From Paraspadella gotoi (taxonomy: Eukaryota > Animalia > Chaetognatha): a DNA stretch of 64,000 nt. The translations under genes and the position numbers were made by a program. The stretch is taken from assembly GCA_051294375.1 (NCBI GenBank), contig CM119265.1:12513866-12577865 (forward strand). The letters run 5' to 3'. Shown one piece after another: positions 7,711 to 63,310 of this stretch. Positions within the stretch are counted from its first letter, which is position 1. Each line of letters starts with the position of its first letter. The notes under the pieces are model-generated. The model ran no database searches, was not told the DNA's origin, and saw only the letters and a list, made by a program, of their open reading frames with translations.

Positions 7711-8620
7711 TTCTCTTTCAACTTCGACGAGGGAATTTGAAAAAAAAAAGGAAAAAAAATCTTTGTTCCCCATTTTTTTCTCTTTCTGATCCATAAATAT
7801 TACGATATTTCAACCCTCGAGAAATAATAAGGGATTTAACGTTCGTCCCAAAAGTCGGCGACGAGGGTTTTACTTCTCGATCCCCGGATTCAATATTATG
7901 ACCCCGATATAAATAAATATATATATATGTGGATTGTGGAAGGAGTGTATGAAAACTAAAAAGGGAGTAGAAGGGTTTAACGAAAAAAAAACCCCTCAGC
8001 TATTGGAACAAAGTGGCGCAGACGGCAGACGAAGAATAATTCTGCACAAAGAAGCGATAAAAAAAAATATATTTTTCAATTATTTTTTGTTTTAATGCGG
8101 CAAATGATTGCGCGAATAAATGCTTATCGACTTCGCAAAGAAAAAAAATGTAGGAAGGAAACTCTGCGATTAAAGCCTCTTTGATCTGTCCGACGAGGCG
8201 AAAGGAAACGAGCTAATGGAAACCAACAGGCTAACGTCGACAACGCTTTTCGTCAAATCCCCGTCGTCGTCGTCGCTGTCGTCGTCGTGATCGTCGCCGT
8301 CGACCCCCCCTCGACGTTGACGTGCAGATTCTTAAATTCTTTCGACGTTTCTTGTTTTTTTTTTTACTTTTTAGTACAACGTCTTCCGTCGCCTTTCTCT
8401 GCCTCCCGTTTTTTCAGCCCTTTAACTCTATTTCCTTTTTATTTCTTCCTTTTTTCTTTCCTTTTTATTTCTTCCTTTTTCTTTTCTTTTTATTTCTTCC
8501 TTTTTCTTTCCTCAAAATTTTAACCCTTTCGCGATTCTCCCCTTTTCCTTCCTCCCATTTTCTGCCTACTATTTCTTCCTTCTCCATATTATGTTCCTAA
8601 TGTCCGATTATAAAAATAGC

Positions 8621-8686
8621 ACAACCAATTTAAAATTATTTATTCTTTCAATAAACAAGCTATCTTTCCCCTGACTTTGGACAGGT
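8621..8686 (-). repeat. Dispersed truncated fragment of the ~320-bp twister-bearing repeat
   Basis: Reverse complement CCTGTCCAAAGTCAGGGGAAAGATAGCTTGTTTATTGAAAGAATAAATAATTTTAAATTGGTTGT aligns with 62762-62827. Confidence 0.75.
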
Positions 8687-9523
8687 CTCCCTTCCCCCTT
8701 CTCTAGGTTTTAATTCTCCTCAAACCCTTAATATCTATTATCACATTTCCCCATTTCCACCCTCTTCTCATTCCCCCTACTCCTTCCCTCCCCTCCCACC
8801 ATTTTTTCCACTTATAATCGCCTCTTTCTGTTTTTCTCCTCTTTCTTCCTCCTCCCAACAAATCAAACAAAGAAGCGAAGAAAACGTGAAGGAGAAAAAA
8901 GAAAACAGGACGGTCCTTCTTTATTTGTTGGGGAGAGGCGGCCCTCGGCCGACGACCCCGGGTAAGTGGGCACGGTTTCGGTTGTCCTTTTGGTCGTCGA
9001 TCCTGTCGTCGTGGTCGTTATCTCGCCGAGCGGTCACCGGTCCACTTCACCTTAAAAACTTTGCCCGGTTATATCGAAAGATTCCTTATTGAGCCGATTG
9101 AGCAGATCGGTTTTTGTTTGGCCGCTGATTAACGAGAATTCTCCGCCGCCATTCCAGCTTGCCAATGAAATTCTGATTCTCTCACAATAAAATATGGATT
9201 TCACGATGATGACGATTTTGGTCGCGGAGCAGAGATTATGGATTCTCGAATAATCGTTACGATTAGGGGAAGGAAGGAGTGTGTGATCGGTCGACCGATT
9301 CAAAACCGTCAAGTGGCTAATAACAACAACAAATATCAACAACAACACCTCCGCCGAGACTAACAACGACCCGTCGCAGTAAATTAGCTTATCTGCCTCG
9401 AGGATGGGAGACCGCGGCGTCCCTCGCAACTCGCAAGGCCGTCGCCATGGAGATGGGCAATCGCGTTCTCCCGACCGACGATTTTAATGGATCTCCCCCC
9501 TCTTCATTCTCTCTGTCCTCTCT

Positions 9524-23428: not shown

Positions 23429-23486
23429 CTCATTTTTTCCCCCTTTTAGCTCTTGGCGTTCTAGTTTCCTTATTTTCTTCGTACTA

Positions 23487-29249: not shown

Positions 29250-29900
29250 AAACAGCTGACCGAAATGACGGAAAAAGTACACCCCGAATATGGACATTGT
29301 AATTTTAATACTGTTTTTAAAATTATATCGACAATGTTACTATACACCAGGAATGCGACGACGAATTACTGACGCAATCAGAAACTGTCATGTTTGTGTG
29401 AGTGAAGAGAAACCATTGACAAAAAATGCCGTTCGCACGAGACAAATACTTTCTTTGCGATTTGCCTGGGTCCGATAGCAAACTCGAAAGGGTATAAATA
29501 TATATTATTAAAGTAGAGAATCTTTCTTAATACCGATAAAATCTACTTCGGCTGAAGATGTCGCTCATGCCTTTTTAAAGATATTCGAATCTCATGGAAT
29601 TTGGGATTGCGTTTCGATCGAAGGTAAATGTGTGACTCAACGAAAGTCGATCGAACTATTTTGAGAAAATTGGGAGTACAAGTACAACAAAAGTACGTAT
29701 GTCAGTAGACATCAACCGTACTCGAACAATTAATCAAATCTGTCTGATTCGAATTTTTAAATGGTTAGATAAGAACCCGACTTACGAAAGTGGTCCGACA
29801 TTTTGAAAAAAGTCGAACTCCCATAACATGAGTCCTTGCGTCTCGTTAGCGGGAAAGAGACCATTCCAGGTAACCCGGAAACACGCGATGAAGTTTTGGA
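29250..29900 (+). pseudogene. Degenerate retroviral-type integrase (HHCC zinc-binding region and start of core)
   Basis: KVHPEYGH ... YTPGMRRRITDAIRNCHVC ... SKGYKYIL ... KSTSAEDVAHAFLKIFESHG, with stops and frameshifts. Confidence 0.75.
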
Positions 29901-32309: not shown

Positions 32310-32523
32310 CTTGGAGGGAGGTCGAATCGTCCTCCATCACGGTTCAGAGAGGGTTCGAGAGCTTTGATGTAGATTGCCTCTCTAATACCTCTAGAAACCA
32401 GTTTTGGTCATGGGACAGCACGAGACAGTCAGTTTCTCTGAACAGATGGCCAGAATTTGCCGTGTGCTCGGCAATGGCCGATAAGTAATGACCACGTGGT
32501 CCCGATATGGCTTTGTGTGCTGC
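32310..32523 (-). pseudogene. Penelope/Poseidon-type GIY-YIG endonuclease C-terminal fragment
   Basis: SAIAEHTANSGHLFRETDCLVLSHDQNWF/(frameshift)RGIREAIYIKALEPSLNRDGGRFDLPPS; the frame resumes (YDSL...) across the LTR insertion at ~26114. Confidence 0.88.
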
Positions 32524-32815
32524 TTAACAGTTAATTTCAGTTTATGTTTAGATTTCATGCATTTTATCTCTGTTGTACATTGCTAATGTATTGTTTAAAA
32601 ATTTTTGCTTTGCTCTCTCTCTCTCTCTCTCTCTCTCTCCACTCTCATTTCATTTTTCAAAGACTTACTTCTTCCCTCTCCTCACCTTCAGCTGTCCTCA
32701 GATCTGACCACTGTCCCTTAACTTATTCTTTGTTGGAAACTCTCCCTCAATTTCTCTCTCTCTCTCTCTCTTTCTCTCTCTCAAAACTTACTTCAACAGA
32801 GACAAAATATTGATT

Positions 32816-32866
32816 GTCAAACACTGATAGAAGGCTCTAAAATGAATGAGCCGAAACATGTCTACT
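32816..32866 (+). ncRNA. Second hammerhead copy in the inverted pLTR (1-nt insertion in core)
   Basis: CTGATAGA-A-GGCTC-TAAAATGAAT-GAGCC-GAAACATGTC; the extra A may be a sequencing error. Confidence 0.6.
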
Positions 32867-33344
32867 AAATTGTGTCAAATAAATCGTTGTCAAACAAAAA
32901 CTGTTTTTTCCTAATACCTCAAAAACAACGAAAGGAGAGTATATACATAACCCACTTAATGAAAGAATTTTAAAAATGATTTATATTTTCTTTTATCAAC
33001 TTTTGACGAAGAATTCAAATCATCAATCAAAATTAAGAAAAGCCTATTTTGAAATTTTTCGTTTTATAAGGATAGTACTATATATAAATATAGCCTACTG
33101 CGAAAATTAAAAAACATAAAATTAATTTTTTTTATAAATTAATGTTCAGTGATGGTATGTTGTTCCTAATTGACTTTTAGAATTTTCGTATCTAACTTTC
33201 ACTACGCCTTAGTGGCTGGTCTTTGGGTCTGGCGAAAAATTCACTTTTCTTTTTGACAATCCCCATCACGACTGTCAGCGATGTCTCGATCAACTCTTTC
33301 TTTTAGTCAGAACTTCTCTCTTTTTCTTTCTTCCTCATTTCTTT

Positions 33345-34922: not shown

Positions 34923-37502
34923 CATAACATAGCTCTAAATCTCGTTAAAAAGGAAAGAAAATAATTAGGAAAACGAAAACGTCATTGTGGTGGAATCGAA
35001 TCTCGGTTAATTTTAAGAAAAAAGAGGGGAGAAGAAGAGGAGAGCAGAAAGAGGAAGAAGGAAGAGAGGAGAGAGAAAGAGAGAGAGAGAGACGAGAGAG
35101 ATGAAAGAGAAAGAGAGAGAGAGGAAAGAAAAAAATTTGAAGGTTGTCTATTGCCTATTATTAATCAATAAAGGTAGATAACGTATCTCGCTCACAATTC
35201 TCCCATAAATTAAAAACCAAAAAATTTCGGTTTTATAGGTCAAATTCATGTCGTTATTGACTTCAATAACGGTAAAACCTAAAATAATAAAAAAAAACGG
35301 TATATGATCCCATAAAAAATAAAAAGATTTTCATAACAGTCGTAAAGAAAGTCAAAATTCAAATAAACTGATATTTAACGTATTTTATCTCGTCAAATCT
35401 CTCTTTCAGAATAACACAATGATCTCTTCATAATTTTCAACACGGAAGATAACTCCAATGAAATGGGATAATATTAGATACGGAGGAATGACGAGGGGAA
35501 AAAAATGGGAGGAAAAACAGGACTGGTGGGATAATTTCAAGAGACTTTTGAAAACTCATTTGGCATGATTCCGAACACGGAACTGGCCGGCGAAGGAGGA
35601 AAAGGAGTGAAAATTTGGGACAGAGGAGTTGAAACACATTGTAACGTTCACGAGGGGGCCTATCGTGACTGGTTGGAAAGAGCTTTCACGGAATGTGGGT
35701 AAAGGAAGAAAGGGGAAGAGGAGTAAAGGAAGATGAAAAAAAAAAAAACACTGGAGAGGGAAAAGCGCGAAGGGCGAAGTTGTTACGGTTGGAAATAAAT
35801 AAAATTTAAATACACTATTAGAGGACGTATGTTTCATAACAAACTAAGACTATACACTTTTATTAAGTCATTACAGACAGTATTAAAAAATAAAGTGTTG
35901 AGCAAAGTTGCGACTGCGCAAAGAAGAAAACCGGAAGAGCTTTTATCCGGATATTCGAATATCGAATCGGTTTTTAAAGTTCTCGTTTTTCCCCGTTGGT
36001 TTGCATGAAGTTTGTTTATTTACATTTACTTACGATTTTCTTTTTCAAACTTAAGATATAACAAAATATCGAAGTTCTTTTTTAAACAGAAAAAGAAGCG
36101 AATCCCGTGATTGGATTTATTGTAATCACTGGAAAATTCGTATTTTTTTTTGTTCGAGCCGGTGTAATTGCTTCCGTTCAGTTTTTTTTTTTTCTCTTTT
36201 GTGGCTTTGCCTCTTTTATTAAAACGACCGGTACCGAAGTTTAACAAAATTTAATTGATGTTTCTCTCTGTTTCTTTTCATGTCGATAAAACCAAAGAGA
36301 TGATAGACATGTTATCTCCGCAAAAAACGATTCGATCACCGCAGAGATGATTATATCGAGTTTCGGCGTCGAGTACAACAACTTGAAAAAAAAAAAAAAA
36401 AAAACATTAAAAAATGACCCGATTTCGTCTTTCGAACGATTGAGTTCGAAAATTTATCTCGTGCTTAATTTAGTGCCGGCGTTAAGCGATAATTCCGGTG
36501 TAAGGAACAAGGCCTTTCGAAACGCGTTGCCGGAAGAAGAGAGAGAGAGAGACGAGGAAGAGAGAGGAGAGGAGAGAAGAGGAGAGAGAGAGACTGAGAG
36601 AGAGAGAGAAGAGGAAGAGAGAAAGAGAGAGAAAGAATAGGAGAGAACGACAGAAAAATGAGAAAACGTAGAAATCAAGGAGGCAATTACAAATCACTCC
36701 AGTTGCAGAAACGGCAGATGAGATTATGAGAGAGAAGAAAGAAGAGAGAGAAGGAGAGAGAGAGAGAGAGACAGAGAAGAGAGAAGAGAGAAGAGAGGAA
36801 GAGAGAGAGGAGAGAGAGGGGATCGAACGCAGACGCGATCCTCGGCGCTAGAGAAAAAAAAAAAAGTTTAAAAGATTCGTCGTTCTGAAGGTTCGATCGA
36901 TTCGGCGTGGAATCAGCAACCATACCGCAGCAACAAACAAACACAACAAAACACGTCTACAACTACAACCTCTATAACAGAAAGCGGCATAGCTACCCCC
37001 ATCTGCGCAACGAAAAGCCTCGCAGACACGATCGCTCGATGGATTCGAATGCCTCCTCAGGGGCGATTTGGGGAGCGGACGGCTTTGGAGATTGGAAATC
37101 CTGCTGACGGATTGTGAATCACGCTGGGGATGCGAATCTGACCTCGTAGAACAATCTGAATCAATGGGGATTCGATCATCTAATTATAACAAGTAAAATC
37201 CACAAACATGTTCTACAAAAATATAAATGACATACAGTGTTTTTTTTAAAAACTAATAAACTTATTTGACCATCTGTTTACTTGCTGGTAAACTCAAACA
37301 AAAATTACTTTTTTGTTCATTTAGAATAATTCATTCGTTGCTAAATTATTTAATATTCTTTTTTCCTCGTTTAATTCTTTCACTTTTTATTAGTTTTGTA
37401 TTTTTCCCCCTTTCTTTCTTTCGATTTTAATTTAAATTTATGTTTTAAGTACTGTTGTTTGTTTTCTTTATTCTTTATTATCATTCTTTTAATTAATATT
37501 AA

Positions 37503-37820
37503 ACACCTGAGGGCTCCACAGCAAAGAAGAAGGGAAAAATATCCCGGTCAACCAAACCGCACAAAAACCAATGTCTTCCCTCCGCTTGTGGATAAGGCGC
37601 TACGGCTGAAGATGACTGTCGTAAACTTCTAAACCCCCTCTAACAGCCATCTCCGGAACGGGTCCCTGGCTTGAACCAGGCGTTGAGGGTTGCCATTGCC
37701 CCCAAGGCGGCTTACTGGCCGTTCTCACGCCTTCCCGCAGGGCTAGGGTACCAGGTTGGATTGAACCTCGTACGTTAGTGTCAGAGCGATTGGCTTTACT
37801 CAATGAGCCACCGGGTCACC
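37503..37820 (-). mobile_element. tRNA-derived SINE
   Basis: Minus strand begins GGTGACCCGG-TGGCTCATTGAGT (A box) ... GGTTCAATCC (B box, 37758-37767), then a ~250-bp GC-rich body and an AT-rich tail. Confidence 0.7.
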
Positions 37821-39479
37821 AAACTGAAAGCGTTCATGATTCTAGGCGTGGGTGAACCTAGCAACGGCTCCCGACTACACTCCTCTGTATCAGCCGGAAA
37901 TGTCTAAACGGGAGTTCGAGACTCGAAGAAGTCTCTCGATGAATAGATCGAGCGTTAAAAAACTACTTAATTCAAGGTGGATCGTGAGGTGGAGGATTAG
38001 GTGGTTTAAAAGTGTGAGTATTGGTATGAGAATAATTTCATGGTTTTTTTTTTCGCGGATGACGTCGAAAAAAGGAAGTGACATTGCGTGAGGAGTGGAG
38101 AGCGCAAGGGCGGCGGACTGGGATGAAGGTCCGGTGACGGGTAGCTTCCGGTAATTCTTACGTCTTTGCGGCGGCAAACGTTAGTCGATTACGAACGAAA
38201 ATCTAGATGAAGTCACGCTCACGGAGAAATGGGATACGAGTCTCGCCCTCTCATCCAATCGATGGGCGAAGTACAGAAAAAAAGGAAATCCAGAAAAAAA
38301 ATAAGGCCAGACGTTTTTCGGTCATCCTTCTCCCACCCACCGGCCACCGCCACCGCCACCGCCCCGCCACCGCCACCGCCACCCCACCCGCCACCTGCAC
38401 GCCACCGCCACGCCACCGGCCGACCGTGTTCACCCGGCCATTAAAAAGAGGGTCGTTTGTTCGAAGTGACCCTTAACCGGGAGTTGGGGACTCGACGGAT
38501 CGACGGGATCTTGCTGATCATCTCATTTGACTGGACGAGAAAGTCAAATCACGTGAGAATTCATCCTGCGCGCGAATACTTCTTTCTTTAAGCACAAATC
38601 CGGCTATGCGACATCACCTCCCGTCTGCAACTAGTTGTTTTATTAACAAATGAGTAAAATTAGGAACAGACTTCGTTCTATCATTTCGAACACCCTAGTA
38701 AATCCTATTCAAAGATCTCTGCAAATTTTGTAAAGTGTTGACATTTTTTTCTTGATTTTACGGAAGTTTGTTCGGTCGAAAGAAAGAAATGACGATCGAT
38801 TATGTCCAATTTTCAAAAATTTTTTTTTCCTTTTTATTTTCCCTAATCGAGGAAAGGAGGAAGATGATTGGTGTTGATCCGGAAAAGGGGAAACGGTCGG
38901 GGAGAGAAAAGAACAATACGTACGGATGGATGCTTCGATACTTTCAGTATGTCTTATTTAAGAACGTTTCTTTAATGTAAGAAGAATGCATAGAAGGAAA
39001 AACTAAACACTATAAAAAAAAAAACAGAAAAAAACAACCAACATTACGAATTGCGTCCTTAATGGAAAAGTCTCGTTTCTTAAAGAAAATAAAAATCCAA
39101 CGATCGTGGATTAAACCCACACAGAACCAATCTCGCCCTTTTTTCTTCCCAACCTTTCCATCCTTTCTTCAATTCGATCAACCTTTATTATTCGTCCTTG
39201 ATTCCCTCTCAATCCTTATTCGACCAAAGCTTTATATTTTATTCCTCCTTTCTCATCCAAATCACTTTGTCTACTCGCAGAAAATCTTTGCCTCATCGCG
39301 CTGTTTCTTTAAACGCGCCTTCGTCTCCTATTCGTTTTAAATCTCGTCAATTCTAATCTTATGCTCCTTGTTATGAGTTATCACCTCATTCTCCTTACGT
39401 CAAAACCATTTGACCTTTCCATTCATATTACTCTTCCTACTTTTCTGAACTCGTCTTGCTTTTCATTTCTTATCAGCAT

Positions 39480-39800
39480 TTCAATTCTCATGTTTATTCC
39501 AGTCTTCTCATCTTATCCCCACGCCCATACTCATCCAATATCCTTTTCACTCCCATTCTCATCTTTATCCCATCCCATTCCCATCACTCTCCTCCCCATC
39601 TCATATTATCCACCCATCTCATCCAATATGTCTCCTCCCATCTCATCTTATCCCATGACATCTCCTTCCATCTCATATTATCCCATCCCATCTATCCAAA
39701 GCCCGTCTCATCTCTATCCCGTGCCATCTCCTCCCATCTCATTCTTATCCCATGCCATTCTCATCCGATCTCGTTGCTCACTCATCTCATCTTTCTCCAT
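39480..39800. repeat. Degenerate CCATCTCATCTTATC-type minisatellite
   Basis: Repeated (T/C)CCCATCTCAT(C/A)TTATCCCA units; a cleaner copy lies at 58060-58350. Confidence 0.85.
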
Positions 39801-39969
39801 CAATTCTCCCGAAAGCATAACTCCTTTTGGCCTAAGCTTCGGATAGCCGAGAACGTCGCGCGAAAGAGAAGAGGCGTCTCGATTTGGAAAGAGAAGATAA
39901 AAACCTCGCAGAGATGATAACGCAGGCAATATTTAAATTAATTGTATAAATTATATTGAAAATATAATG

Positions 39970-40410
39970 ATATACTGTAAGGCCGACAAATAAAAACATT
40001 CCGTAAATTACAACAAACACGTACTCTAAATATTGCCAATCATCACAATAAATTATAAATCATAACATAATTATTTTATGAAATTTATATGCGTTATAAA
40101 AAATTATGCAAAACATCTAGGAAAAAAGATTGAACATAAGCCATTTATTCAATAAAAAGTAATACCAATATATGGGTAAAACATTCTGAATAATTGGTAT
40201 CTCTTTTCGGCATCGAGTACTGCCTGCATTCATTGGCATGCTCTCATACCAGCAAGATTAGGTTATGACATTGAAATGGTTTCCATACTTTAACGCGAAT
40301 ATTTCAGACCCAATGTTCATGTTGCATTGCTTTCCCTCTTTTTAAAAGGTATATAGTAGCACTTTTTGAACCAAAAAGCGGTCATTGCAAGTCCTTTAGC
40401 ATTGCCCAAA
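39970..40410 (-). mobile_element. Tc1/mariner transposon 3' remnant
   Basis: Minus-strand translation (clearer in copy 2) VKVWKTISLSYLNLLYESMLR*MQAVLDAE..HTKY matches the Tc1 transposase C-terminal W..I....L..L..SM..R..AV......TKY pattern. Confidence 0.65.
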
Positions 40411-41268
40411 TTAAAAAAAAAATAAAAAAATAACTAACTAAGGAAATACTAATTATAATTTTTGCGCCATTTTTTATTTGAATAACAATATATTATTGGC
40501 CATAACTTCTAAACAATAAACCTAAACAAAAAAATGAGGAACGTACCTGAAAAGGAAAATTCAATTTAGATCAGAAAATTTCTGATTTTTTAAAAAAAAT
40601 CAAACAATTTCGAATAGATATCCTTTATTAAAAGATGTTATATACTTTTTTTCTAGATAGTAATTGCGTATGGAATTAAAACAAATAACAGACTCGAAAC
40701 TCATTCATCAAGCTGCGACAATACATTCGCATAAATCTGAAGAATATATGCAGGAAATAATTAGAAAGGCTTGATGCAATTTTTCATAATTATTGAAAAT
40801 TTACATGCAAGCCGCTTCTTAGACAAGACCCTATTTCGTGCCGCTCCGATCTAGATGTTCTAATCCAATGCTACTTTATCTTTCTTTTATTCTATTATTC
40901 CTTTAGCGAGAGCGAGTAAAGTAGGCTGTTGCGGACAGGTTGGGTATGGATCTATGTTATGCAACAGCCGGTTCTTGATGCCATGGCATGGGGCATCTCA
41001 CGTGCTTGGGGGGCTTCCGACGTCTCAGTGACGCCTCTCGTTACTGGCGCGTTTTCATAGACGTCTGCGCTTTGCAACGGAAGTCATAGAAATGAGATTA
41101 ACACAACGCTTGGGATGTGTGTTCCCCCTCTAGCCAATTGGATTCTGAACGATGATGACGTGAGGCGGTGTTTACAAATAGACCACCACAATGTCTTCAT
41201 ATTATTTTAGCAAGGGCTGATTGTGACTAGTGAGCCCGAGCAAGTCTAGGAGGTAAAATCAATTCTCT

Positions 41269-41336
<68 letters not shown>

Positions 41337-42659
41337 CTCTCAACTCTACCTCTCTCTCTCTCTCAAATACTCTCCGCTTTTCTTTTGGGGGAAGATAAGG
41401 TCGCGGGGCAACGCGTTGACATTCCTCAAAGAACGTCACTCTGAACAACGATGTTATATTTGTTAATGAAAATGACGTGAAATCAACTCACGCTGTGGAC
41501 CAATTTCAAGCTTAACATAATACTATTATTATTCACTCCACATAGGTTTAAAAGCTTAATAGAAGACTTCTACAATCCTACAGCGACATATGGCTAATGA
41601 TTACCTTCACTATGAGAGTGATGATAAAATAGATGACGTGACGATCACAATAATAAAAAGTTAAGCCAGTTGCTCCCCTTTTTTTTTTCTGAACAAATAT
41701 TCGAAGGCGCGAGTTTCTGGAAACCAGAAAATCCGATTTTTGACGAAAATGAGGAGGACAGATGATGAGGAGAACTCGGGGGGAAATAGTAAATGGAAAT
41801 GCAGATGATGGGAAGAAATCGAGATAAATGAAAAAAGATATGAAATGGCATGTTAAAATAAAGTTTATTTTTGGAAAAATTTTTAAAACTTTTTGGTATT
41901 TTGGATTTACTGTAAGTTTGATTTCGCGTTCAAAATATAAAACAAAACAAACATTACCAAAACAAACGCCGTTGTAACAACCGCAGACAACGCAGGCAAC
42001 GCCGACCCACACAGGCGCGTCGACCCACACAGGCACGTCGACCACGAATTCGACCTCTGGTGACCACCAACATTGAGAGTCCGAAGAGAGAGATAACCCC
42101 CGACGAACGACGACGACGACGATAAACGACGAGACGTAAACGCACCCTCACATAGAGAGAGTTGAAAGAGGAACAAAAAAACTTGATCGGAAATCCGCGA
42201 TTGTGAGCGGATTATAAAGCTCCATACACCCCCCCCTCAGATTATAAAGAAGTTCATGACTCAAGACCCACCAATCTTCTGCCCTTTAATTCACTTCACA
42301 TTTTCCAATATTTTCTTTCCATCCACAGCTTGCGCATTTTCCTCTCAAATTTCGAAGCGAAAAAAGGATGAAGAGGTTTTGTTTTTTTAATTTAATTACA
42401 ATTTTTAATTGCGTAAACATGCGCCAATGTTTTTTATCGTTTCCTGCTTCTCACAAGTCCGCGAGAAGACGTTGGCCGACCGGTGTACACCGACACGAGA
42501 TGGAGATTCGAACAAAAAGTCGTTTTCGGGAATAAGGATCGAGGTTTGTTCTCAAACTCTGGTTATTACCATATTAATGATACAGTAAAAATAAAAATAC
42601 TTTAGTTAAAAACAGTATATTTTTATAAGAATATTTGTCGTGACCCTCAGAGGTTTTCG

Positions 42660-45292
42660 AACCGATTACCATTTGACGGACGTCCAATTCCATCGCCCTC
42701 TCTAACGAGGGTCCGCCCGTTCGTCACCCCATCGCCCAATCGCACGCGATTCAAACGCCGCTACCCGCGACCGCGAAACCTCCTCCGGAAACGAAGTTCT
42801 CGGTACGACGAAAATATTCGAAAACGTGCCTTGACGCGACTCGACCGGGGACGACGGACGAAAGAGCGATGACCGCTGGCGATGACGAGGGCGACGCCAA
42901 CGGCGACCGATCCGACGACTACTGGAGATCTCGACGTCTGTTCGGAAAGACGACGAGGATTCCGGTCGAAAACGGACGCACTACTCTGCAAACATTCGCT
43001 TGCGAAGAAGTATCAGGTTCGATGCCGAATATTTGTTTGATTTTCTATTAAAAAATTCTATCGTAAAATCTTCAATCCTTATTCTATTGTTTATCTCAGG
43101 CGCCCAATCGGTTCTGTTTCCGATGCCCGGAAAAAAACTTGGAAAAAGCGAACCAAAGGCTCGCGGAAAGTTATTTTTGAACCGATTGTCAGTAAAAAAA
43201 CGACAAATTCTTTTACTAATTAATTTTAATTTTCTTTTAAAAAAGGGTGCAACGAATTTCGTCATGAGTGCATCAAGCTGGGGGTTGTTTCAAACTGCGG
43301 TGCGATTATCTCATTTCCAATCTTGACTATGATGAAGAGAAGGAAGGCGGATTTACGTCTTACGGTTATCAACGAAGGCGAAGAATTAAGGAAATTTAAT
43401 TTTGTATTTGCGTTTCGAGGCCATAAAAGAATTTAGTTTAATTTAATACCGCGTTATTATTAAAACCTTGAATGCTTTAACCAGGCTACGAACCGCTCGC
43501 GAGGATATTCGCTTCGCACGCCCGAGAAAGCCTGACGCGACGCTGGCGCCGCAACGCTCCGCCAATTCCAGCGCCGCCTCCACCGACGCCTCCGCTCGCG
43601 GCGCGCCTTCGAGTTTTCTCGTGGTCTCCGAAGAAAAAATCCCTACGAAGCGGAGAAGTTGACGAAGATCGCGACTCTGTTGGCGAGATCAAAGTCGAGC
43701 TTCGAGAATATGTGCCTTGGGTAAGTTTGGGTGAGGGATTAGGGTCACTCGCTAGAATTGAAAACAATAAGTTCGCTAAGAATTTGAATTTATAAATTTA
43801 CTTGAATATTAATAAAGGCCAGGATCGAATATCTTGTGGCATCCGAATTCTACAGTAATTATGAATATAATATATAATGGATAAATTTATATTGGTTTAC
43901 CATTTCATTAAAATTCAGCCTCCTTGTATTTTGATGCTAGTGCGGAGTACAATAAGTATTCCCGATCTAATACTTAAGGAGTGGCCTTCATACAATTGAA
44001 ACATCTTTGAAATATTTTCCACTTCTATTGCTAGGAAGCAGGTACTCGGGAGTGAATAAACAAGGACTGTGAGAGAGTCTTGATTGGAAAGCTCTGCAGG
44101 ACCTGCTATGTCATTATCTTGTAAGAGTGATGGAGGCCTTAAACCACCAAAGCCTGTCGCAAAACAGGCAAGATAGTTTATTTATTAAATAATGGATAAT
44201 TATATTGGTTTACCAATTTTCATAAAAATCACTCCTTGTATTTTATGCTTGTGCGGAGTACAATAATATTCCCCATCTTATACTTAAGGGAGTGTCTTTC
44301 ATACATTGAAACATTCTTTGAAATATTTCCACTTCATTGATAGGAAGCCTGGGTACTCTGGATATAAACAAGACTGTGAAGTCTCTGTTGAAAGCTTGCA
44401 GATCCTGCTATTCATTATTTGTAAGAGTGATGGAGCCTTAACCACCAAACCGTCCAAAGTCAGGGCAAGATAGCTTATTTATTAAATGAATGGATAATTT
44501 TAATTGGTTGTACCAAATTTCATTAAAATTCAGCTCCTGGTATTTTGATGCTAGGGCGAGTACAATAAGTATTCCCCGATCTAATACTAACGGGAGTGGT
44601 CGTTCATACAATTGAAACATCTTTGAAATATTTTCCACTTCAATGATAGGGAAGCCAGTACTCTGGGATGAATGAAAACAAGACTGTGAGAGTCTCTGAT
44701 TGAAAGCTTGCAGAACCTGCTATTGTCATTATTCTTTTAAGTGATTGGAGGCCTTAACCACCAAAAAGCCCTGTCCAAAGTCAGGGCAAGATAGCTTATT
44801 ATTAAATGAATGGATAATTTTATATTGTTGACTTTTGTAGCCAATTTCATAACTATATAATATTAAATCAAATTATCAAATGGGTTCCAATATTTAAAGC
44901 TTCCACTTTCAAGTAGCTTTCTTTTTCCTTCGACACCACTCTCATTGTACTGCAGCACCATTTTACGACAATGCGTCGAGATCCTATCGTCGTCTTCATC
45001 GTTATTACGGAATCCGGGTAACTCTTCTCACTACGACCAACAGCACAAAACACTTTGACCTTGTTTCCCCCTCAGTGATCAGGCTTCGCTTTTGGATCAG
45101 TCCATCCTAGCGACTGTCGATCAACCATTCCCTCACTGCCTTCTTTCAACGGATGCTCCTCTGATGAGAAGCAGACCACGAGAAGACGAAGCACGTTCTC
45201 GCTTCTTAAGGGCAAGGAGGAAGCAACAAAAGACAGCAACTACTATCACATGCCCCTTTAGAGAGCGTTGCTGTGTTATTTGCGAAACCTAA
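42660..45292 (+). CDS. Same putative unknown gene in duplication copy 1 (approximate span)
   Basis: Colinear with 61260-63310, with the same splice-like boundaries but more indels. Confidence 0.4.
44115..44175 (+). ncRNA. Twister candidate, array unit 1 (L4 corrupted)
   Basis: 5' half identical to 62724-62766; loop 4 reads UCGCAAAA. Confidence 0.5.
44416..44472 (+). ncRNA. Twister candidate, array unit 2 (several 1-nt deletions)
   Basis: GTAAGAGTGATGGAGCCTTAACCACCAAACCGTCCAAAGTCAGGGCAAGATA. Confidence 0.5.
44730..44793 (+). ncRNA. Twister candidate, array unit 3 (indels in the 5' half)
   Basis: GTGATTGGAGGCCTTAACCACCAAAAAGCCCTGTCCAAAGTCAGGGCAAGATA. Confidence 0.5.
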
Positions 45293-46574
45293 CAAAATAT
45301 TTGATATGAAGTCTGTTTTCTTTCTAACAGCCATTAAAAAAAAAAAAGAAATCTTTGTCATTGATCTAAATGGCTTAAAATACCTTTTTAAATTACTACG
45401 CTGCATGTATAATACTTTGCAATATAAAAAATTCATGACCAAATTTATGTTGGCATGATGGACAAGTTGGCACTATAATGCATAACAATTTTTGTGCTTT
45501 CCATTTCGCAAGGAACTGCATTAAAACCTGAAATTTATAACAGTTTGTGGTTTTAAACTGAGTTAAATCTTCTTGAAATTTTTATCTTAAATTTTTTATA
45601 GTTACTTTTGCATATTTCATTGACCCGATTTATTGACACTGACAATGGACAATGGCACCGTTCCCATTTCTTTCGTTGTTTTCTATCTTGAAACATAACT
45701 AAAAACAATTAATGTTATCATAATAGATTTATTTTGCTAATAAAAGAATTATGTTGTGGAGACAAGTCTTTGACACTTATTATTAAAATGTTAATTAAAA
45801 ATTTTTAAAAGCACTAATCGTAAATAAAAAACAATTAGTGAATTTGTCATGTTTCTAAGCTTTTCCGGTAGGTGGGACAAGAAAGCAAGGCGCATGCTCG
45901 TGGAAAACAGAAAGACAAAAAATGCTATTAAAAAATAAAATCATAGCTCAATTTTTCGTGTCAAATTTCGACGATGAAGATAGATTTCAAAATTGTCAGA
46001 TTTTCCCGTTGCTTAAATGATATTAAGTTCAAAACCTCTATTTGCATTTAAATATATCAAACAATAATCTTGATAATCTCTATCTACCAATATGAAAAAT
46101 TTAAAATTTTACCCTTCATAACTTAGCCCTCGTCCTTACCCCGAACGAAATTATTTCTCTCATTTTCCTTGCACGCGATCGACACATTACGCTCAAAGAT
46201 TTGATACCCTCATCCTTTTGACGTACCTGCCCAACCTCAAAAATCTTTTTTTTTACCTATTTCGAATCTGTTAATTGTTTTTTCGTTTTTAATTTTATTC
46301 CTTGCTTATTATTTTTTCAACTCACAGTATATTAACGAGTAAAATACTTTCGGTTAGATCAAATCGTTCCACCTCATCTGTTTTCAACTCTTAACATACC
46401 ACAATAATCTCTATTCCCTGCCTCTTTCAGCATTCAATTCACTTTTATTTTCTTCCTCTTCCTCTTCCCCTTTTACTCATCCTTCACTCGTATATTTCAC
46501 CGGTCTCTCCTCCACTCAAATTTCCCGCCCCCTTTGCCTCTCCCCCGAAAAAAATATTGTTTCCTTCGTCCGTC

Positions 46575-53850: not shown

Positions 53851-53885
<35 letters not shown>

Positions 53886-55293
53886 GAAAGAAAAAAAATT
53901 TGAAGGTTGTCTATTGCCTATATTATCAAATAAAGTAGATAAACGGTATCTCGCTCACAATTCTCCATAAAATAAAACCAAAAAATTTCGGTTTTATAGG
54001 TCAAATCATGTCGTATTGATTCATAACGGTAAACCTAAAATAAAAAAAAAACGGTATGTATGATCCATAAAAAATAAAATGATTCGTCATAACAGTCGTA
54101 AAGAAAGATCAAATTCAAATAACTGATATTTACGTATTTTATCTCGTCAAATCTCTCTTTTCAGAATAACACAATGATCCTTCATAATTTTTCACACGGA
54201 AGATAACTCCAACTGAAATGGGATAATAATTAGATACCGAGGAAGACGGGGGAAAAAATGGGGGGAAAAAAGGACTGGTGGGATAATTTTCAAGGAGACT
54301 TTGAAACTCATTTGCATGATTCCGAACACGGGACTGGCGGCGAAGGAGAAAAGGAGAAAATTGGAGACGAGAGTAGAAACGACATTGTATACGTTCACGA
54401 GGGGGCGTGACTGGTTTGTGAAGAGCTTTCACGAATGTGGGTTAAAGGAAGAAGGGAAAGAGAGAGTAAAGGAAGATGAAAAAAAAAAAAAACCTGGAGA
54501 GGAAAAGCGGCGAAGGCCGAAGGTTGGTTACGGGTTGGAAATAAATAAAATTTAATACACTATTAGAGGACGTATGTCATAACAAACCTAAGGACATATA
54601 CACTTTATACAGTCATTACAGACAGTATAAAAAATAAAGTGGTTGAGGCAAAGTTGCGACTGCAAAGGAAGAAAACCGGAAGAAGCTTTTCTCGGATTAT
54701 CGAATATCGAATCGGTTTTTAAAGTTCTCGTTTTTCCCCGTTGGTTGCCATGGAGGTTTGTTTATTTACATTTACTTACGATTTTCTTGTTCCAACTTAA
54801 GAATATAACAAAATATCGAAGTCTTTTTTAACAGAAAAAGAAGCGAAATCCCGTGATGGGATTTATTGTAATTCACTGAAAAATTCGTATTTTTTTTTGT
54901 TTCGAGCCGGTGGAATTGCTTCCGTTCAGTTTTTTTTTTTCTCTTTTGGTTGCTTTGCTTCTTTTATTAAAATCGACCGCGACCGAAGTTATACAAAATT
55001 TTAATGATGTTTCTCTCTGTTTCTTTTCATGTCGATAAACAAAGGAGATGATAGACGATGTTATCTCCGCAAAAAAGCGATTCGATCACCGGCAGAGATG
55101 ATTATATCCGAGTTTCGGCGTCGATGTACAACAACTTGAAAAAAAAAAAAAAAAAAAACATTAAAAAAATGACGCGATTTTCGTCTTTCGAACGATTGAG
55201 TTTCGAAAATTTATCTTCGTGTCTTAATTTAGTCCGGCGTTACGATAATTCCGTTGTAAGGGAACAAGGGCCTTTTCGAAACGCGTTGCCGGA

Positions 55294-55324
<31 letters not shown>

Positions 55325-55503
55325 GAGAGAGAGAGAATGAGGAGAGGAGAGAGACGAGAGAGATGGATGAGAGAGGAGAGAGAAGAGAGAGAAAGAATAG
55401 GAGAGAACGACAGAAAAATGAGGAAATACGTTAGAAATCAATGGAGGCATTACAAACTTCCACTGCCAGTGCAGAAACGGAGAGAGATTATGAGAGAGAA
55501 GAA

Positions 55504-55547
<44 letters not shown>

Positions 55548-56226
55548 ATCGACGCAACGCGATCTCGCGCTAGAGAAAAAAAAAAGTTTAAAAGATTCGT
55601 CGATCTGAAGGTCGATCGAGTTTTCGGGGGAATCACAACCGATACCGCAGAACAACAACAACAACAACGACGTCTACAACTACAACCTCTATAACAGAAA
55701 GGGCAATAGCTACCCCATCTGCTGCAACGAAAAGCCTCGGCAGACACGATCGCTCGATGGATCGAATGCCTCCTCATGGGCGATTTGGGAGCGGACGGCT
55801 TGGAGATGGGAAATCCGCTGACGGATTGTGATCACGCTGGGGATGCGAACTGACCTCGTAGAACATCTGAATCAATGGATTCGATCATCAATAATAACAA
55901 GTAAAATCACAAACATGTCTACAAAAATATAAATAATACAGTGTTTTTTTAAAAACTAATTTATAACTTATTTTGACCATCTGTTTACTTGCTGGTAAAC
56001 TCAAACAAAAATTACTTTTTTTTTCATTTAGTAATAATTCATTTCGTTGCTAAATATTTATATTATTTCTTTTTTTCCTCGTTTAATTCTTTCACTTTTT
56101 TTGAGTTAGTTTGTTTAATTTTTTCCCCTCTTTCTTTCTTTCGATTTTTAATTAAATTTTATGTTTTAAGTAGCTGTTGTTTGTTTTTCTTTATTTCTTA
56201 TTATCTATTCTTTTAATTACATTTAA

Positions 56227-56534
56227 ACACCTGAGGGCTCCACAGCAAAGAAGAAGGGAAAATATCCCGGTCAACCAACGCACAAAAACCAATTCTCCCT
56301 CCTGTGGATAAGGCGCTACGTGGGCTGAAGATGACTGTCGGTAACTTCTATAACCCCCTCTAACAGCCATGGAACGGGTCCCTGGGCTTGGAACCAGGCT
56401 TGAGGGTTTGCCATGCCCCCAAGGCGGCTTACGGCCGTCCTCACGCTTCCCGCAGGGTAGGTACCAGGTTGGGATTGAACCCGGTACGTAGTGGTCAAGA
56501 GCTGATGGCTTTACTCAATGAGCCACCGGGTCAC
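56227..56534 (-). mobile_element. tRNA-derived SINE (duplicate copy)
   Basis: Same as 37503-37820, within duplication copy 2. Confidence 0.68.
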
Positions 56535-57030
56535 AACTGAAAGCGTCATGATTCTAGGCGGGGTGAACCTAGGCAACGCCCGACTACACTCCTTGTATCG
56601 ACCGAAATGTCTAAACGGGAGATTCGAGACTCGAAGTCTCTCGATGAATAGATCGAGCGTAAAAACTATTTAATTCAAGGTGGGATCGTGAGGTGGATGG
56701 ATAGGTGGTTAAAAGTTGGTGGAGTGATTGGTATGGAATATTTCAGGTTTTTTTCGGGTGACGTCGAAAAAAGGAGTGACATTGGTGAGGAGTGAGAGGG
56801 AAGTGCGCGGACGGTGGGATGAGAGGTCCGGTGACGGGTAGCTTCGGGTATCTTACGTCTTTGCGGCGGCAAACGTTAGTCGATTACGAAGAGAAATCTA
56901 GATGAAGGTCACGCTCACGGAGAAATGGGAGTCGAGGTCGCCCTCTCATCCAATCGATGGGCGAAGACAGAAAAAAAAGGGAAAATCCAGAAAAAAAAAA
57001 TAGGCAGACGTTTTTCGGGTCATCCTGTCT

Positions 57031-57061
<31 letters not shown>

Positions 57062-59858: not shown

Positions 59859-59951
<93 letters not shown>

Positions 59952-61259: not shown

Positions 61260-63310
61260 TTGACGGAGACGTCCAATTCCATCGCCTCTTCTAACGAGGG
61301 TCCGCCCGTCGTCACCCTCCATCGCGCCAATCCGCACGCGATTCAAACGCCGCTACCCGACGTCCGCGAACCTCCTCCCGGAAACGAAGTTCTCGGTAGC
61401 GACGAAAATATTCGAAACGTGGCCTTGACGCCGACTCGACCGGGGACGACGGACGAAAAGAGCGATGACGCTGGCGATGACGAGGTCGACGCCAACGGCG
61501 ACGGTCCGGACGACTACTGGATATCGTCGACGTCTGTTTCGAAAGACGACGAGGATTCCGGTCGCAAAACGGACAGCACTACTCTGCAAACATCGCTTGG
61601 GAAGGAAGTATCAGGTTCGACAGAATTTATTGTTTGATTTTCTATTAAAAATCTATCGTAAATCCTTCAATCCTTATTCTTATTGTTTATCTCAGGCGGC
61701 CCAAGCGGTTCGTTTCTCGATGCCCGGAAAAAAACTTGGAAAAGCGAACAAAGGCTCGCGGAAAGGTTTATTTTTGAACGATTGTCAGTAAAAAAACGAC
61801 AAATTCTTTTACTATTAATTTTTAATTTTTTTTTAAAAAGGGTGCAACGGTTGGTCGTCATGGAGTGCATCAAGCTGGGGGTGTTCAAACTGGAGTGCGA
61901 TTATCTCTATTCGCACATCTTGGACATGATGAAGAGAGGAAGGGCGGTTTACGCTTACGGTTATCAACGTAAGGCGAAAATTTAAGGAGAAATAATTTGT
62001 ATTTGGTTTCGAGGCCATAAAGAATTTAGTTTAATTTAATAACCTGCGTTGAATTATAAAACCTTGAATGCTTAACCAGGCTACGGAACCGCTCGCGAGA
62101 TATTCGCTCGCGACGCCGAGAAATGCCTGGACGCGACGCTGGCGCCGCACGCGCCGCAATTCAGCGCCGCCGTCCACGCGACGCCTCCGCTCGGCGGCGC
62201 CTTCGAGTTTTTCTCGTGTCTCTCGAAGAAAATCGCCTACGAAGCGGAGAAGTTGACGAAGATCGCGACTCTGTTGGCGGAGATCAAAGTCGAGTTCGAG
62301 AATATGTGCTTGGGGTAAGGTTTGGGGTGAGGAGTTAGGGGTCACTCGCTAGAATGAAAACAATTAAGTCGTAAGAATTTGAATTTATAAATTTACTTGA
62401 ATATCTATCCATTAGGCCAGGATCGAATATCTTTGTGGCATCCGAATTCTACAGTAATATAACGAATATAATATAATGAATGGATAATTTTTATATTGGT
62501 TGTACCAATTTCATAAAATTCAGCTCCTTGTATTTTGATGCTAGTGCGGAGTACAATAAGTATTCCCCGATCTAATACTTAAGGGAGTGGTCTTTTCATA
62601 CAATTGAAACATTCTTTGAAATATTTTCCACTTCATTGATAGGGAAGCCAGGTACTCTGGGAGTGAATAAACAAGACTGTGAGAGAGTCTTGATTGAAAG
62701 CTTGCAGGGACCTGCTATGTCATTATCTTGTAAGAGTGATGGAGGCCTTAAACCACCAAAGCCTGTCCAAAGTCAGGGGCAAGATAGCTTATTTATTAAA
62801 TGAATGGATAATTTTTATATTGGTTGTACCAATTTCATAACTATATAACTATTAAAATCAAATTGATCCAAATTGGATTCCAATTATTAAAGCTTCCACT
62901 TTCAAAGTAGGCTTTCTTTTTTCCCTTCGACAGCCCACTCTCATTGTACTGCAGCCAACATTTTACGACTATCGTCGAGGATCCTATCGTTCGTCTTCAT
63001 CGTTATTACGGAATCCGGGTAACTCTTCTCACTTACGACAACAGCACAAAACACTTTTGACCTTGTTTTCCCCCCCTCAGGTGAGTCAGCTTCGCTTTTG
63101 GACTCAGTCCATCCTTAGCGACTGTCGACTCAAGCCGGGATTCCCTCACTGCTTCTTTCAACGGATGCTCCTCTATGAGAAGCAGACCATTGAGAAGACG
63201 AAGCACGTTCTGGTCTTCAAGGCAAGGAGGAAGCAACAAAAGAACAACCTACTATTCACAATGCCCTAGAGAGGGCGGTTGCTGACTGGTTATTTGCGGA
63301 AACCTGAACA
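61260..63310 (+). CDS. Putative multi-exon gene of unknown function (approximate span; indel-disrupted)
   Basis: GC-rich blocks bounded by AG/GT with short AT-rich introns: ~61260-61614, 61696-61765, 61841-61959 (VMECIKLGVFKLECDYLYSHILDMMKRGRAVYAY), 62080-62313 (..GGAFEFFSCLSKKIAYEAEKLTKIATLLAEIKVEFENMCL), 62416-62452, ~62893-63018 and ~63081 onward. Confidence 0.45.
62475..62840 (+). repeat. Single 324-bp unit with ~42-bp terminal redundancy (same family)
   Basis: AATGAATGGATAATTTTTATATTGGTTGTACCAATTTCATAA at 62475 and 62799. Confidence 0.9.
62724..62786 (+). ncRNA. P5-type twister ribozyme candidate (best copy)
   Basis: UAUCUUGU-AA-GAGU-GA-UGG-AGGCCU-U^AA-ACC-AC-C-AAA-G-CCUG-U-CCA-AA-GU-CAGG-G-GCAAGAUA. 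P5 is 8 bp, P4 is CCUG/CAGG, pseudoknots are T1 CCA/UGG and T2 AC/GU, and the conserved UAA, GA and L4 U...AAGY are present. P2 is imperfect (ACC/GAGU). Confidence 0.72.

What the first reader, a model, noticed from the sequence alone, without database searches (positions are those of the whole stretch)
43876..44852. Candidate twister-based retrozyme: ~320-bp non-coding tandem units, each with one twister ribozyme
Seen: three head-to-tail units plus a partial one, no convincing ORF, one twister-like motif per unit, a possible low-complexity TSD (ATATAATAT), and related copies elsewhere in the window. Known: metazoan non-LTR retrozymes are tandem repeats of a few hundred bp carrying type I hammerheads; their multimeric transcripts self-cleave to monomers, circularise and are retrotransposed in trans. 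Inference: this is the same architecture with a P5-type twister in place of the hammerhead, which I do not recognise as a described family. Insertions that begin and end at the same point away from the cleavage site, with terminal redundancy, fit reverse transcription around a circular template.
Basis: partly seen in the sequence, partly recalled or inferred. Interest (0 to 1): 0.92.

Follow-up and report, generated by a model that had tools for sequence, protein, structure and literature searches.

The report
Twister ribozyme replaces hammerhead in retrozyme
A 324-base non-coding repeat, found at many separate places in this genome and sometimes head to tail, carries in each unit the sequence pattern of a 'twister' self-cutting RNA where known animal elements of this kind carry a hammerhead, so it likely spreads as an RNA that is predicted to cut itself to unit length, probably close into a circle, and be copied back into DNA by a Penelope-type jumping-gene enzyme.

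Summary
The tandem repeat is real, but 43876-44852 is an error-rich version of a locus assembled twice. The read-verified version (62476-62840) holds one 324-bp unit plus a 41-nt terminal repeat. That unit has a type-P5 twister core with both pseudoknots, P4, P5 and the catalytic G and A (Rfam 25.8 bits, E 6.6e-4 on 131 nt, below the 37.6 cut-off). P2 is one pair short, and P1 is shrunk to a 6-nt palindrome, like helix III of dimer-acting hammerheads. Public contigs show a dispersed, high-copy family with a fixed 3' end about 90 nt after the predicted cut, varied 5' ends and real head-to-tail joints: a Penelope-type footprint. None of 18 common variant sites falls in the twister core or P5. 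Not shown: cleavage, transcription (no RNA run listed), a circle, compensatory covariation, the TSD, the helper. Nine literature searches found only hammerhead retrozymes. This scan noted hammerhead versions, and one twister-like motif in a retroelement copy, in other genomes; no look-alike of this sequence. Verdict: a new variant of non-LTR retrozyme, most likely twister-driven and possibly cutting as a dimer.

The parts
43876..44852 (+). Error-rich version of the insertion: three ~320-bp units plus a ~41-nt partial unit
   Evidence: TRF 3.1 copies; BLAST; indel-dominated differences
44114..44176 (+). Twister motif of unit 1 (L4 loop altered, by error or mutation); predicted cut 44140/44141
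44415..44473 (+). Twister motif of unit 2 (bases missing in the palindrome and P4)
   Evidence: overlaps the weak twister-P3 hit (E 0.32)
44729..44794 (+). Twister motif of unit 3 (small insertions)
   Evidence: Twister-P5 17 bits, E 1.2
62476..62840 (+). Read-verified version of the same locus: one 324-bp unit (62517-62840) preceded by a 41-nt terminal repeat (62476-62516 = 62800-62840)
   Evidence: X1 contigs with 0 differences at both junctions, X5 at the right junction
62723..62787 (+). Type-P5 twister: P5 62723-30/62780-87; P2 62734,36,37/62752-54 with A62735 bulged; general base G62738; T1 62740-42/62767-69; T2 62755-56/62772-73; P4 62762-65/62774-77; predicted cut U62749^A62750
   Evidence: Rfam Twister-P5 25.8 bits, E 6.6e-4 for 131 nt; descriptor; P5 pair probability 0.78-0.86 for 7 of 8 pairs
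62743..62748 (+). 6-nt palindrome AGGCCU in place of stem P1 (one A-U pair closing a palindromic tetraloop; predicted 6-bp duplex between two copies)
   Evidence: cmscan aligns it as P1 with no loop; duplex -9.1 kcal/mol against +5.6 for the one-pair hairpin
62835..62840 (+). Fixed 3' end of dispersed insertions, about 90 nt after the predicted cut, with no poly(A) tail at the loci seen
   Evidence: loose ends with unrelated AT-rich flanks: X1 113/189/177 contigs at 62838/39/40, X5 33/48/34; X1 97 at 62835
62640..62722 (+). Long predicted hairpin in the spacer
   Evidence: z -4.18, 0 of 200 shuffles as good, but the stretch was chosen after seeing the fold; variants do not spare its pairs more than chance
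8608..8688 (-). Diverged, 5'-truncated copy at an unrelated site: starts in P4 of the twister and ends at the family's 3' end

Best explanation
This is a high-copy, non-coding 324-bp repeat with a fixed 3' end, varied 5' ends and head-to-tail copies, and it is most likely a non-autonomous retroelement of the non-LTR retrozyme kind whose ribozyme is a type-P5 twister instead of a type I hammerhead. Inferred cycle: (1) read-through transcription of a two-unit or longer copy; (2) cutting at U62749^A62750 in each unit, probably helped by pairing of the AGGCCU palindromes of two copies, releases a 324-nt monomer; (3) a host ligase would close it, and in the lone circle the palindrome is predicted to pair with the 5' strand of P4 and hold the ribozyme off; (4) a Penelope-type RT/endonuclease would start at a fixed point about 90 nt after the cut, in AT-rich DNA, and copy through the re-joined cut site, stopping early (truncated copies) or going more than once round (unit plus 41 nt, tandems). 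Shown: the repeat, the motif, the fixed 3' end, truncation and head-to-tail joints. Steps 1-4 are all inferred.
For: Motif: Twister-P5 is the top Rfam match on the accurate copy, E 6.6e-4 for 131 nt against 4227 families. Against the Rfam P5 consensus, T1, T2 and P4 each differ by one two-sided, pair-keeping change, and T2 AC/GU equals the P3 consensus. A structure descriptor hits once in the window (62738), 3 times in 300 window shuffles and in 1 of 40,000 unit shuffles. The elements whose damage lowered cleavage among about 2600 tested natural twisters (both pseudoknots, catalytic A and G, A+2, L4 A) are intact, and P1 and P2 flaws were tolerated there (PMC11662667 section 32). Constraint: 0 of 18 sites varying in 3% or more of X1 depth lie in the 59 core/P5 positions, P 0.024 over the whole unit. 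In the twister region 2 of 8 listed variants break a pair against 4.9 expected, P 0.018; the two common ones sit at the P2 bulge and the P4-P5 linker. Mobility: 22,919 of 2,679,714 X1 contigs lie on the stretch; hundreds end at 62835-40 with unrelated flanks, also in X5. Insertions run through the cut site and do not end at it. Circular fold of the plus strand: z -2.3, 70% paired, against -0.5 for the minus strand. Switch: P4 probability 0.06 in the lone circle and 0.85 when the palindrome is withheld, at a cost of 3.5 kcal/mol per copy against a -9.1 duplex. Precedent: non-LTR retrozymes are 170-400 nt, under 50% GC, tandem, and some work as dimers through a one-pair helix with a palindromic tetraloop (PMC7229834); they are linked to PLEs (10.64898/2026.07.22.740005). 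A Penelope-like copy with a palindromic-helix hammerhead 55 nt before its 3' end lies in this window.
Against: No gathering-level Rfam hit; the score is 11.8 bits under the cut-off, and scaled to the whole window the E-value would be about 0.3. P2 has 3 pairs and a bulge, and one review passage suggests that changing the number of P2 pairs may spoil the active site (PMC5408937). No two-sided compensatory change among copies was seen; 40 of 55 variant rows were shown and no linkage is given. Over the whole unit, variants break predicted pairs as often as chance (13 against 14.3 expected), and the depletion restricted to G/C sites over the whole unit is only P 0.085. The nested active fold is 8.7 kcal/mol above the minimum without pseudoknot energy. 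TSD not shown. The 3' end has no similarity to the neighbouring Penelope copy (51% of shuffles score as well), so the helper is unidentified. Ribozyme-free non-autonomous PLEs also give pLTRs and head-to-tail copies (PMC8557442). Only 1 of 9 predicted Xenopus retrozyme dimers cut in vitro. The descriptor was written after the motif had been seen, allowing a 3-nt P2 and a short P1 region.
Confidence: 0.55

Rival explanations
1. The twister is real and cuts, but there is no circle. The element is a non-autonomous Penelope-type sequence copied from linear, uncut or multimeric transcripts; tandems and the 41-nt repeat come from template jumps or unequal crossing-over, and the cut only trims read-through RNA or serves translation or turnover.
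For: The fixed 3' end, 5' truncation, partial tandems and a 30-40-bp tail are the PLE pattern with or without a ribozyme (PMC8557442; PMC8969392). Local amplification by unequal crossover is proposed for retrozyme arrays. No circle is shown here.
Against: An active twister would cut a linear template 90 nt from the point where copying starts. Copies starting at 62750 are not among the best-supported loose ends (the smallest X1 rows listed hold 44 and 45 contigs), while depth continues far upstream of the cut. The plus-strand circle folds better than shuffles.
Confidence: 0.2
2. The motif is a dead or vestigial twister, or a look-alike, carried by an ordinary short non-autonomous retroelement; it plays no part in spreading.
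For: Below the Rfam cut-off; short P2; competing fold preferred; no compensatory changes among copies; low variation in the core could reflect one young master copy.
Against: Every catalytic and pseudoknot position is intact, with three pair-keeping differences from the Rfam consensus; chance frequency about 1 in 40,000 unit shuffles; common variants avoid the core while hitting its neighbours.
Confidence: 0.13
3. The unit is the terminal repeat (pLTR) or end of an autonomous Penelope-like or RTE-type retrotransposon that carries a twister, and the short copies are its truncated offspring.
For: The ribozyme sits 90 nt before a fixed 3' end, as the hammerhead does (55 nt) in the neighbouring Penelope copy. 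Twister variants are known in RTE elements (PMC8501958; PMC7761336). Retrozymes resemble pLTRs.
Against: The unit closes on itself head to tail. No consistent upstream extension is among the listed loose ends. RTE twisters lie at the 5' end with the TSD beside the cut (abstract), unlike here.
Confidence: 0.08
4. A non-autonomous Helitron/Helentron-like DNA element that makes tandems by rolling-circle DNA replication.
For: Head-to-tail copies, AT-rich targets, no proven TSD, and a weak hairpin at the 3' end.
Against: No TC...CTRR ends or terminal inverted repeats (criteria from PMC8969392); the 3' end is spread over 62835-40; the hairpin is not significant (z -1.19); an RNA enzyme motif would be unexplained.
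Confidence: 0.04

Closest known systems
Metazoan non-LTR retrozymes (PMC7229834, passages; PMC7761336, passages and section 9; bioRxiv 10.64898/2026.07.22.740005, parts 1-3 of 5)
   Same: Unit of 170-400 nt, GC under 45% (37% here), no ORF, one ribozyme per unit, dispersed monomers plus tandems, strongly self-paired predicted circle, presumed PLE mobilisation
   Different: Defined by a type I hammerhead; no CUGANGA core is present in this unit on either strand, and a twister stands in its place. Expression and circles are shown for those elements and not here.
Type-P5 twister ribozyme (Rfam RF02684; PMC5408937, passages and section 11; PMC11662667, sections 4 and 32)
   Same: Order of strands, UAA cut site, GA, T1, T2, P4 with 8-nt loop, ends closed by P5
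   Different: P1 hairpin (about 20 nt in the model) reduced to a 6-nt palindrome; P2 one nucleotide short with a bulge; 25.8 bits against a cut-off of 37.6
Minimal type I hammerheads of Penelope-like elements and newt/axolotl satellite 2, which cut as dimers (PMC7229834, PMC6765202, passages)
   Same: One base pair closing a palindromic tetraloop next to the cut site; tandem context; ribozyme shortly before a fixed 3' end
   Different: Different ribozyme class; twister P1 is dispensable when the substrate end is free (PMC5408937), so dimer dependence is not a given
Non-autonomous Chlamys/PLE elements such as MRC1 (PMC8557442, passages)
   Same: pLTR-like terminal repeat, multicopy head-to-tail insertions, 5' truncation
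   Different: Most Chlamys families lack canonical hammerheads and share 3' ends with an autonomous family; no such partner was found here
Schistosoma T-variant twisters of Perere-3 (RTE) (PMC8501958, abstract and introduction)
   Same: Twister variant with an unusual P1 in a non-LTR retroelement
   Different: There the ribozyme is at the 5' end of an autonomous LINE, with the TSD supplying part of P1; here it is internal, the unit is non-coding and tandem, and insertion ends lie away from the cut

Membership tests
Twister ribozyme (type P5) | Conserved U^AA cut site and general-base G followed by A | tested here: met
   62749-51 and 62738-39; no variant row listed at these sites (40 of 55 rows shown)
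Twister ribozyme (type P5) | Pseudoknots T1 (3 bp) and T2 (2 bp) | tested here: met
   UGG/CCA and AC/GU, all Watson-Crick
Twister ribozyme (type P5) | P4 of 4 bp with inner G-C and loop U-NNN-AA-GY; P5 closing the ends | tested here: met
Twister ribozyme (type P5) | P2 of 4 bp | tested here: not met
   3 pairs plus a bulge. P2 length and flaws did not track cleavage in PMC11662667; a warning about P2 length is in PMC5408937
Twister ribozyme (type P5) | Stem P1 | tested here: inconclusive
   No hairpin within one copy (+5.6 kcal/mol); a 6-bp duplex between copies is possible; P1 is reported dispensable
Twister ribozyme (type P5) | Rfam gathering score 37.6 bits | tested here: not met
   25.8 bits; none in the window
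Twister ribozyme (type P5) | Covariation among homologues | tested here: inconclusive
   No two-sided change among family copies; runs of other organisms held 1-3 near-identical contigs each; pattern scans gave chance hits only
Twister ribozyme (type P5) | Site-specific self-cleavage | not testable with these tools
   needs an in vitro assay
Metazoan non-LTR retrozyme | Type I hammerhead in each unit | tested here: not met
   No CUGANGA core in the unit; Rfam finds no hammerhead there
Metazoan non-LTR retrozyme | Non-coding tandem unit of 150-450 bp, GC under 50%, dispersed in many copies | tested here: met
Metazoan non-LTR retrozyme | Expressed as linear and circular unit-length RNA | not testable with these tools
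   No RNA holder listed; only contigs were available
Non-autonomous Penelope-like element | Fixed 3' end, 5' truncation, partial tandem or pLTR | tested here: met
Non-autonomous Penelope-like element | TSD, inverted 5' copies, 30-40-bp tail | tested here: inconclusive
   TSD not above chance at the one locus tested; two opposite-strand joints at the 3' end with 2 contigs each may be nested insertions
Non-autonomous Penelope-like element | 3'-end similarity to an autonomous PLE of the same genome | tested here: inconclusive
   None to the one PLE copy in the window; no genome held
Helitron/Helentron | TC...CTRR ends with a 3' hairpin, or terminal hairpins with ATIRs | tested here: not met
   Ends read; hairpin z -1.19

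The most novel reading that the evidence does not exclude
A natural twister ribozyme that works as a strand-swapped dimer through a 6-nt palindromic P1, on in multimers and off in the monomer circle, drives a retrozyme copied by Penelope machinery. Twister and hammerhead would then have converged on the same palindromic dimer switch for the same parasitic circular-RNA life cycle.
Probability: 0.3. Interest if true: 0.86.

Novelty: new variant of a known kind. Interest (0 to 1): 0.7.

Why it matters
Retrozymes are defined by hammerheads, and in the papers I read the one function assigned to eukaryotic twisters is at the 5' end of RTE LINEs. A twister-driven retrozyme would show that this circular-RNA retrotransposon cycle needs only a cut with the right ends and not a particular ribozyme fold, would give twisters a second natural job, and would mean hammerhead-only surveys miss whole families. 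A palindromic P1 gating cleavage to multimers would be a new twister mode and is testable with two short transcripts. With hundreds of insertions sharing one start point 90 nt from the cut, the family is also a good tool to test whether Penelope enzymes copy RNA circles.

Tried and rejected
No whole genome is held, so there is no direct copy count, TSD survey or helper search. Rfam at gathering level: 0 hits. No RNA holder listed; this is no evidence on expression. X9, guessed to be RNA, also covers the unique flanks and was treated as DNA. Runs of other organisms (X10: 3 contigs; X13, X16, X17: 1 each) held near-identical traces and gave no covariation; 7 of the 19 listed runs were laid. Degenerate twister pattern in viral contigs: 14 loci, none with the upstream GA-NNN/T1 arrangement. 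In metagenome contigs: 12 loci, none with T1 and P4 pairing and none similar to the unit. Exact motif in bacterial and archaeal genomes: 0. The 3'-end 20-mer in viral contigs gave 1 locus with a 23-nt match only. The IUPAC pattern test in the window was discounted because the pattern came from this sequence. Whole-unit and spacer-hairpin tests of structure-sparing variation were not significant (P 0.38, 0.18, 0.25), and the strand contrast in that test showed nothing. Pol III A and B boxes: none. Five-term search of the PMC8557442 supplement: no 'twister', no canonical loop, no family 3' end; 4 of 13 short-motif occurrences were shown, none recognisably a twister. The neighbouring Penelope protein fragments matched nothing significant in Pfam (3 fragments) or PDB sequences; the Atlas gave a lead only (cluster with GIY-YIG in 15% of members, score 0.90). 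Thirteen other ORFs gave no credible Pfam hit. Earlier findings by sequence and by place: none; one word search empty.
Full report
What is in the window. Tandem Repeats Finder gives an array at 43876-44827, period 311, 3.1 copies. BLAST shows that 35087-45961 and 53851-63993 are one locus present twice (86% identity, 917 gaps) and that a further short copy lies at 8608-8688 on the minus strand. Differences among the units (25-40 gap columns, 4-13 substitutions per ~330) resemble those between the duplicated flanks (107-126 gap columns, 13-17 substitutions per ~1130), which points to uncorrected long-read error. Public contigs settle which version is accurate: X1 matches 62150-62494 and 62815-63150 with no difference, and X5, another sample and study, matches the right junction likewise. 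X1 may be the source of the assembly and is not independent support. All structural work was done on 62476-62840, which is one 324-bp unit plus a 41-nt repeat of its end. No contig spans the locus, so one unit or three is open. The host looks like an invertebrate animal; that is an impression from the microsatellite-rich DNA and transposon relics, not a determination.

The ribozyme. Rfam finds nothing at gathering level in the window and only weak twister hits on the noisy units (E 0.32 and 1.2). On the accurate copy Twister-P5 is the top match, 25.8 bits, E 6.6e-4 for 131 nt, against a cut-off of 37.6; the E-value would be about 0.002 for one unit and about 0.3 for the whole window. The alignment shows the cut site U62749^A62750-A62751, G62738-A62739, T1 UGG/CCA, T2 AC/GU, P4 CCUG/CAGG around UCCAAAGU. 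An 8-bp P5 lies outside the model, and 7 of its pairs have probability 0.78-0.86 in the circular ensemble. T1, T2 and P4 each differ from the Rfam consensus by one change on both sides that keeps the pair. The points lost are the missing 14-nt P1 interior and one P2 nucleotide. A descriptor without family-specific letters hits only 62738 in the window, 3 times in 300 window shuffles and in 1 of 40,000 unit shuffles; I wrote it knowing this case, so it is a little generous. In the largest test of natural type-P1 twisters, flaws in P1, P2 and P4 were tolerated, while pseudoknot mismatches and changes to the catalytic A, G, A+2 or the L4 A were not (PMC11662667, section 32). The sensitive positions are all intact here. 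Against this, a review notes a suggestion that changing the number of P2 pairs may disturb the active site (PMC5408937, section 11).

The palindrome. Between T1 and the cut lie only six bases, AGGCCU. Within one copy they give at best one pair closing a tetraloop (+5.6 kcal/mol); between two copies, a 6-bp duplex (-9.1). A perfect palindrome there has a chance of about 2%, or 7% if the outer pair is taken as required, so this is suggestive only. [quoted passage not shown] In the predicted lone circle the palindrome's GGC pairs with 62761-63 (p 0.83-0.91) and P4 forms at 0.06; withholding the palindrome raises P4 to 0.85 for 3.5 kcal/mol. This suggests an off state in the monomer and an on state in multimers. 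It is a nearest-neighbour prediction without pseudoknot energies, and P1 is reported dispensable for twisters, so a monomer might cut too.

The family. 22,919 of 2,679,714 X1 contigs lie on the stretch, as do 4,251 of 597,646 in X5 and 1,559 of 448,509 in X9, nearly all on the unit; summed depth is about 10^6 against 17-25 in the flanks, which the tool says is no copy number. Contigs leave the unit at 62838, 62839 and 62840 (113, 189, 177 in X1; 33, 48, 34 in X5) into AT-rich flanks that agree at only 0.38-0.41; 97 more leave at 62835. These are contigs, not loci, but they imply hundreds of insertions with one 3' end, 90 nt after the predicted cut. 5' ends vary: the 8.6-kb copy starts in P4, and trace contigs start at 62658 and 62768. 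With the bare monomer as reference, the joint 62840->62520 appears in 6 contigs with 79 nt on the short side, plus variants such as 62837->62517 and 62840->62519, so copies longer than one unit are real DNA. Position 62750 is not among the best-supported loose ends; only the top rows are listed, so a pile-up of up to about 40 contigs would be unseen. Most insertions therefore pass through an intact cut site, which needs either a re-ligated circle or an uncut transcript.

Variation among copies. Eighteen sites vary in 3% or more of X1 depth; none is in the 59 core and P5 positions (P 0.024 over the unit, 0.0008 over 62640-62810; for G/C sites only, 0.085 and 0.009). Of the 8 listed variants in 62723-62787, 2 break a pair against 4.9 expected (P 0.018); the common ones are at the P2 bulge (10%) and the P4-P5 linker (20%). 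Against my reading: no two-sided compensatory change was seen, 15 of 55 rows were not shown, and over the whole unit variants break predicted pairs as often as chance (13 against 14.3). The circle folds at z -2.3 on the plus strand and -0.5 on the minus; the linear unit at z -1.6. No related family in another species was obtained, and no RNA run was listed.

The likely helper. Fixed 3' end, 5' truncation and partial tandems are the Penelope-like pattern (PMC8969392, PMC3846280, PMC8557442, passages). The same window holds a truncated Penelope-like copy: minimal hammerheads at 25223-25187 (-) and 32824-32862 (+) with a palindromic helix III, inverted terminal repeats, a ~32-nt tail and a 13-bp target duplication. 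Its protein fragments resemble a GIY-YIG C-terminus by a recalled motif and a weak Atlas lead, not by Pfam. Its hammerhead lies 55 nt before its 3' end, the same layout, but its 3' end is unrelated to ours. It shows that such elements exist here, not that this one is the partner. Ribozyme-free non-autonomous PLEs also make head-to-tail copies, so architecture alone does not prove a circle.

Comparison with what is known. It works like a metazoan non-LTR retrozyme but fails the defining hammerhead test, so it is not filed as a member. It is twister-like in every catalytic feature but fails the 4-bp P2 and the Rfam cut-off. Nine searches of the held library returned no twister-bearing retrozyme and no dimer-acting natural twister; the 2026 preprint tying retrozymes to PLEs has no occurrence of 'twister' (listing; parts 1-3 of 5 read; its supplements not seen). 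Twisters are described at 5' ends of RTE LINEs (PMC8501958, abstract and introduction; an 'in preparation' remark in PMC7761336) and in viroid-like or viral RNAs (passages of PMC13725137 and 10.64898/2026.09.16.752053). Also seen as passages only: PMC5680766, PMC10085705, PMC11722881. The original 2014 twister paper and its lists, Repbase and subscription journals were not searchable, so an earlier mention cannot be excluded. Earlier notes of this scan record hammerhead retrozymes with Penelope footprints and one P5-twister-like motif in a 352-base retroelement copy in other genomes, unchecked by me except for the preprint they pointed to.

Verdict. New variant of a known kind. Twister-driven retrozyme with PLE-type copying 0.55; real twister without a circle 0.20; dead or irrelevant motif 0.13; end of an autonomous element 0.08; DNA rolling circle 0.04. 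Interest 0.70. The bold reading, a dimer-gated twister converging on the hammerhead's palindrome trick, has probability about 0.3 and would merit 0.86.

Noticed in passing
window 35087-45961 and 53851-63993: The same ~10-kb locus is assembled twice, once error-rich and once accurate at the places checked; other findings in these stretches may be duplicates or carry false indels.
   Followed up: partly
window 25132-26114 (-) and 32306-32950: 5'-truncated Penelope-like element with inverted terminal repeats (25132-25525 / 32524-32917), two minimal type I hammerheads with palindromic helix III that Rfam misses at gathering level, a ~32-nt tail and a 13-bp target duplication; fragments resembling a GIY-YIG C-terminus at 32309-32523 (-).
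   Followed up: partly
window 26115-32305: LTR element (358-bp TG..CA direct repeats, 96% identical, 4-bp duplication ATAG, PBS-like start after the first repeat) inserted into the Penelope copy; no long ORF recognised inside.
   Followed up: no
window 24808-25045 and 32950-33185: Older inverted repeat pair (74% identity) that encloses the Penelope copy; possibly a decayed DNA transposon.
   Followed up: no
window 21804-23590 (-): Two reading frames that look like pieces of a LINE ORF2 (RT-like motif, Cys-rich C-terminus; by recall); Pfam gave no credible match.
   Followed up: partly
window 62800-62838: The 41-nt terminal repeat coincides with a weak local hairpin whose two feet are this insertion's 5' start and the family's 3' end; its length matches the 30-40-bp Penelope 'tail'. 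Hairpin not significant (z -1.19).
   Followed up: partly
window 62559 and 62628: 44-98 X1 contigs have loose ends here whose consensus resembles the unit's own upstream sequence, suggesting diverged subfamilies in the 5' third of the unit.
   Followed up: no
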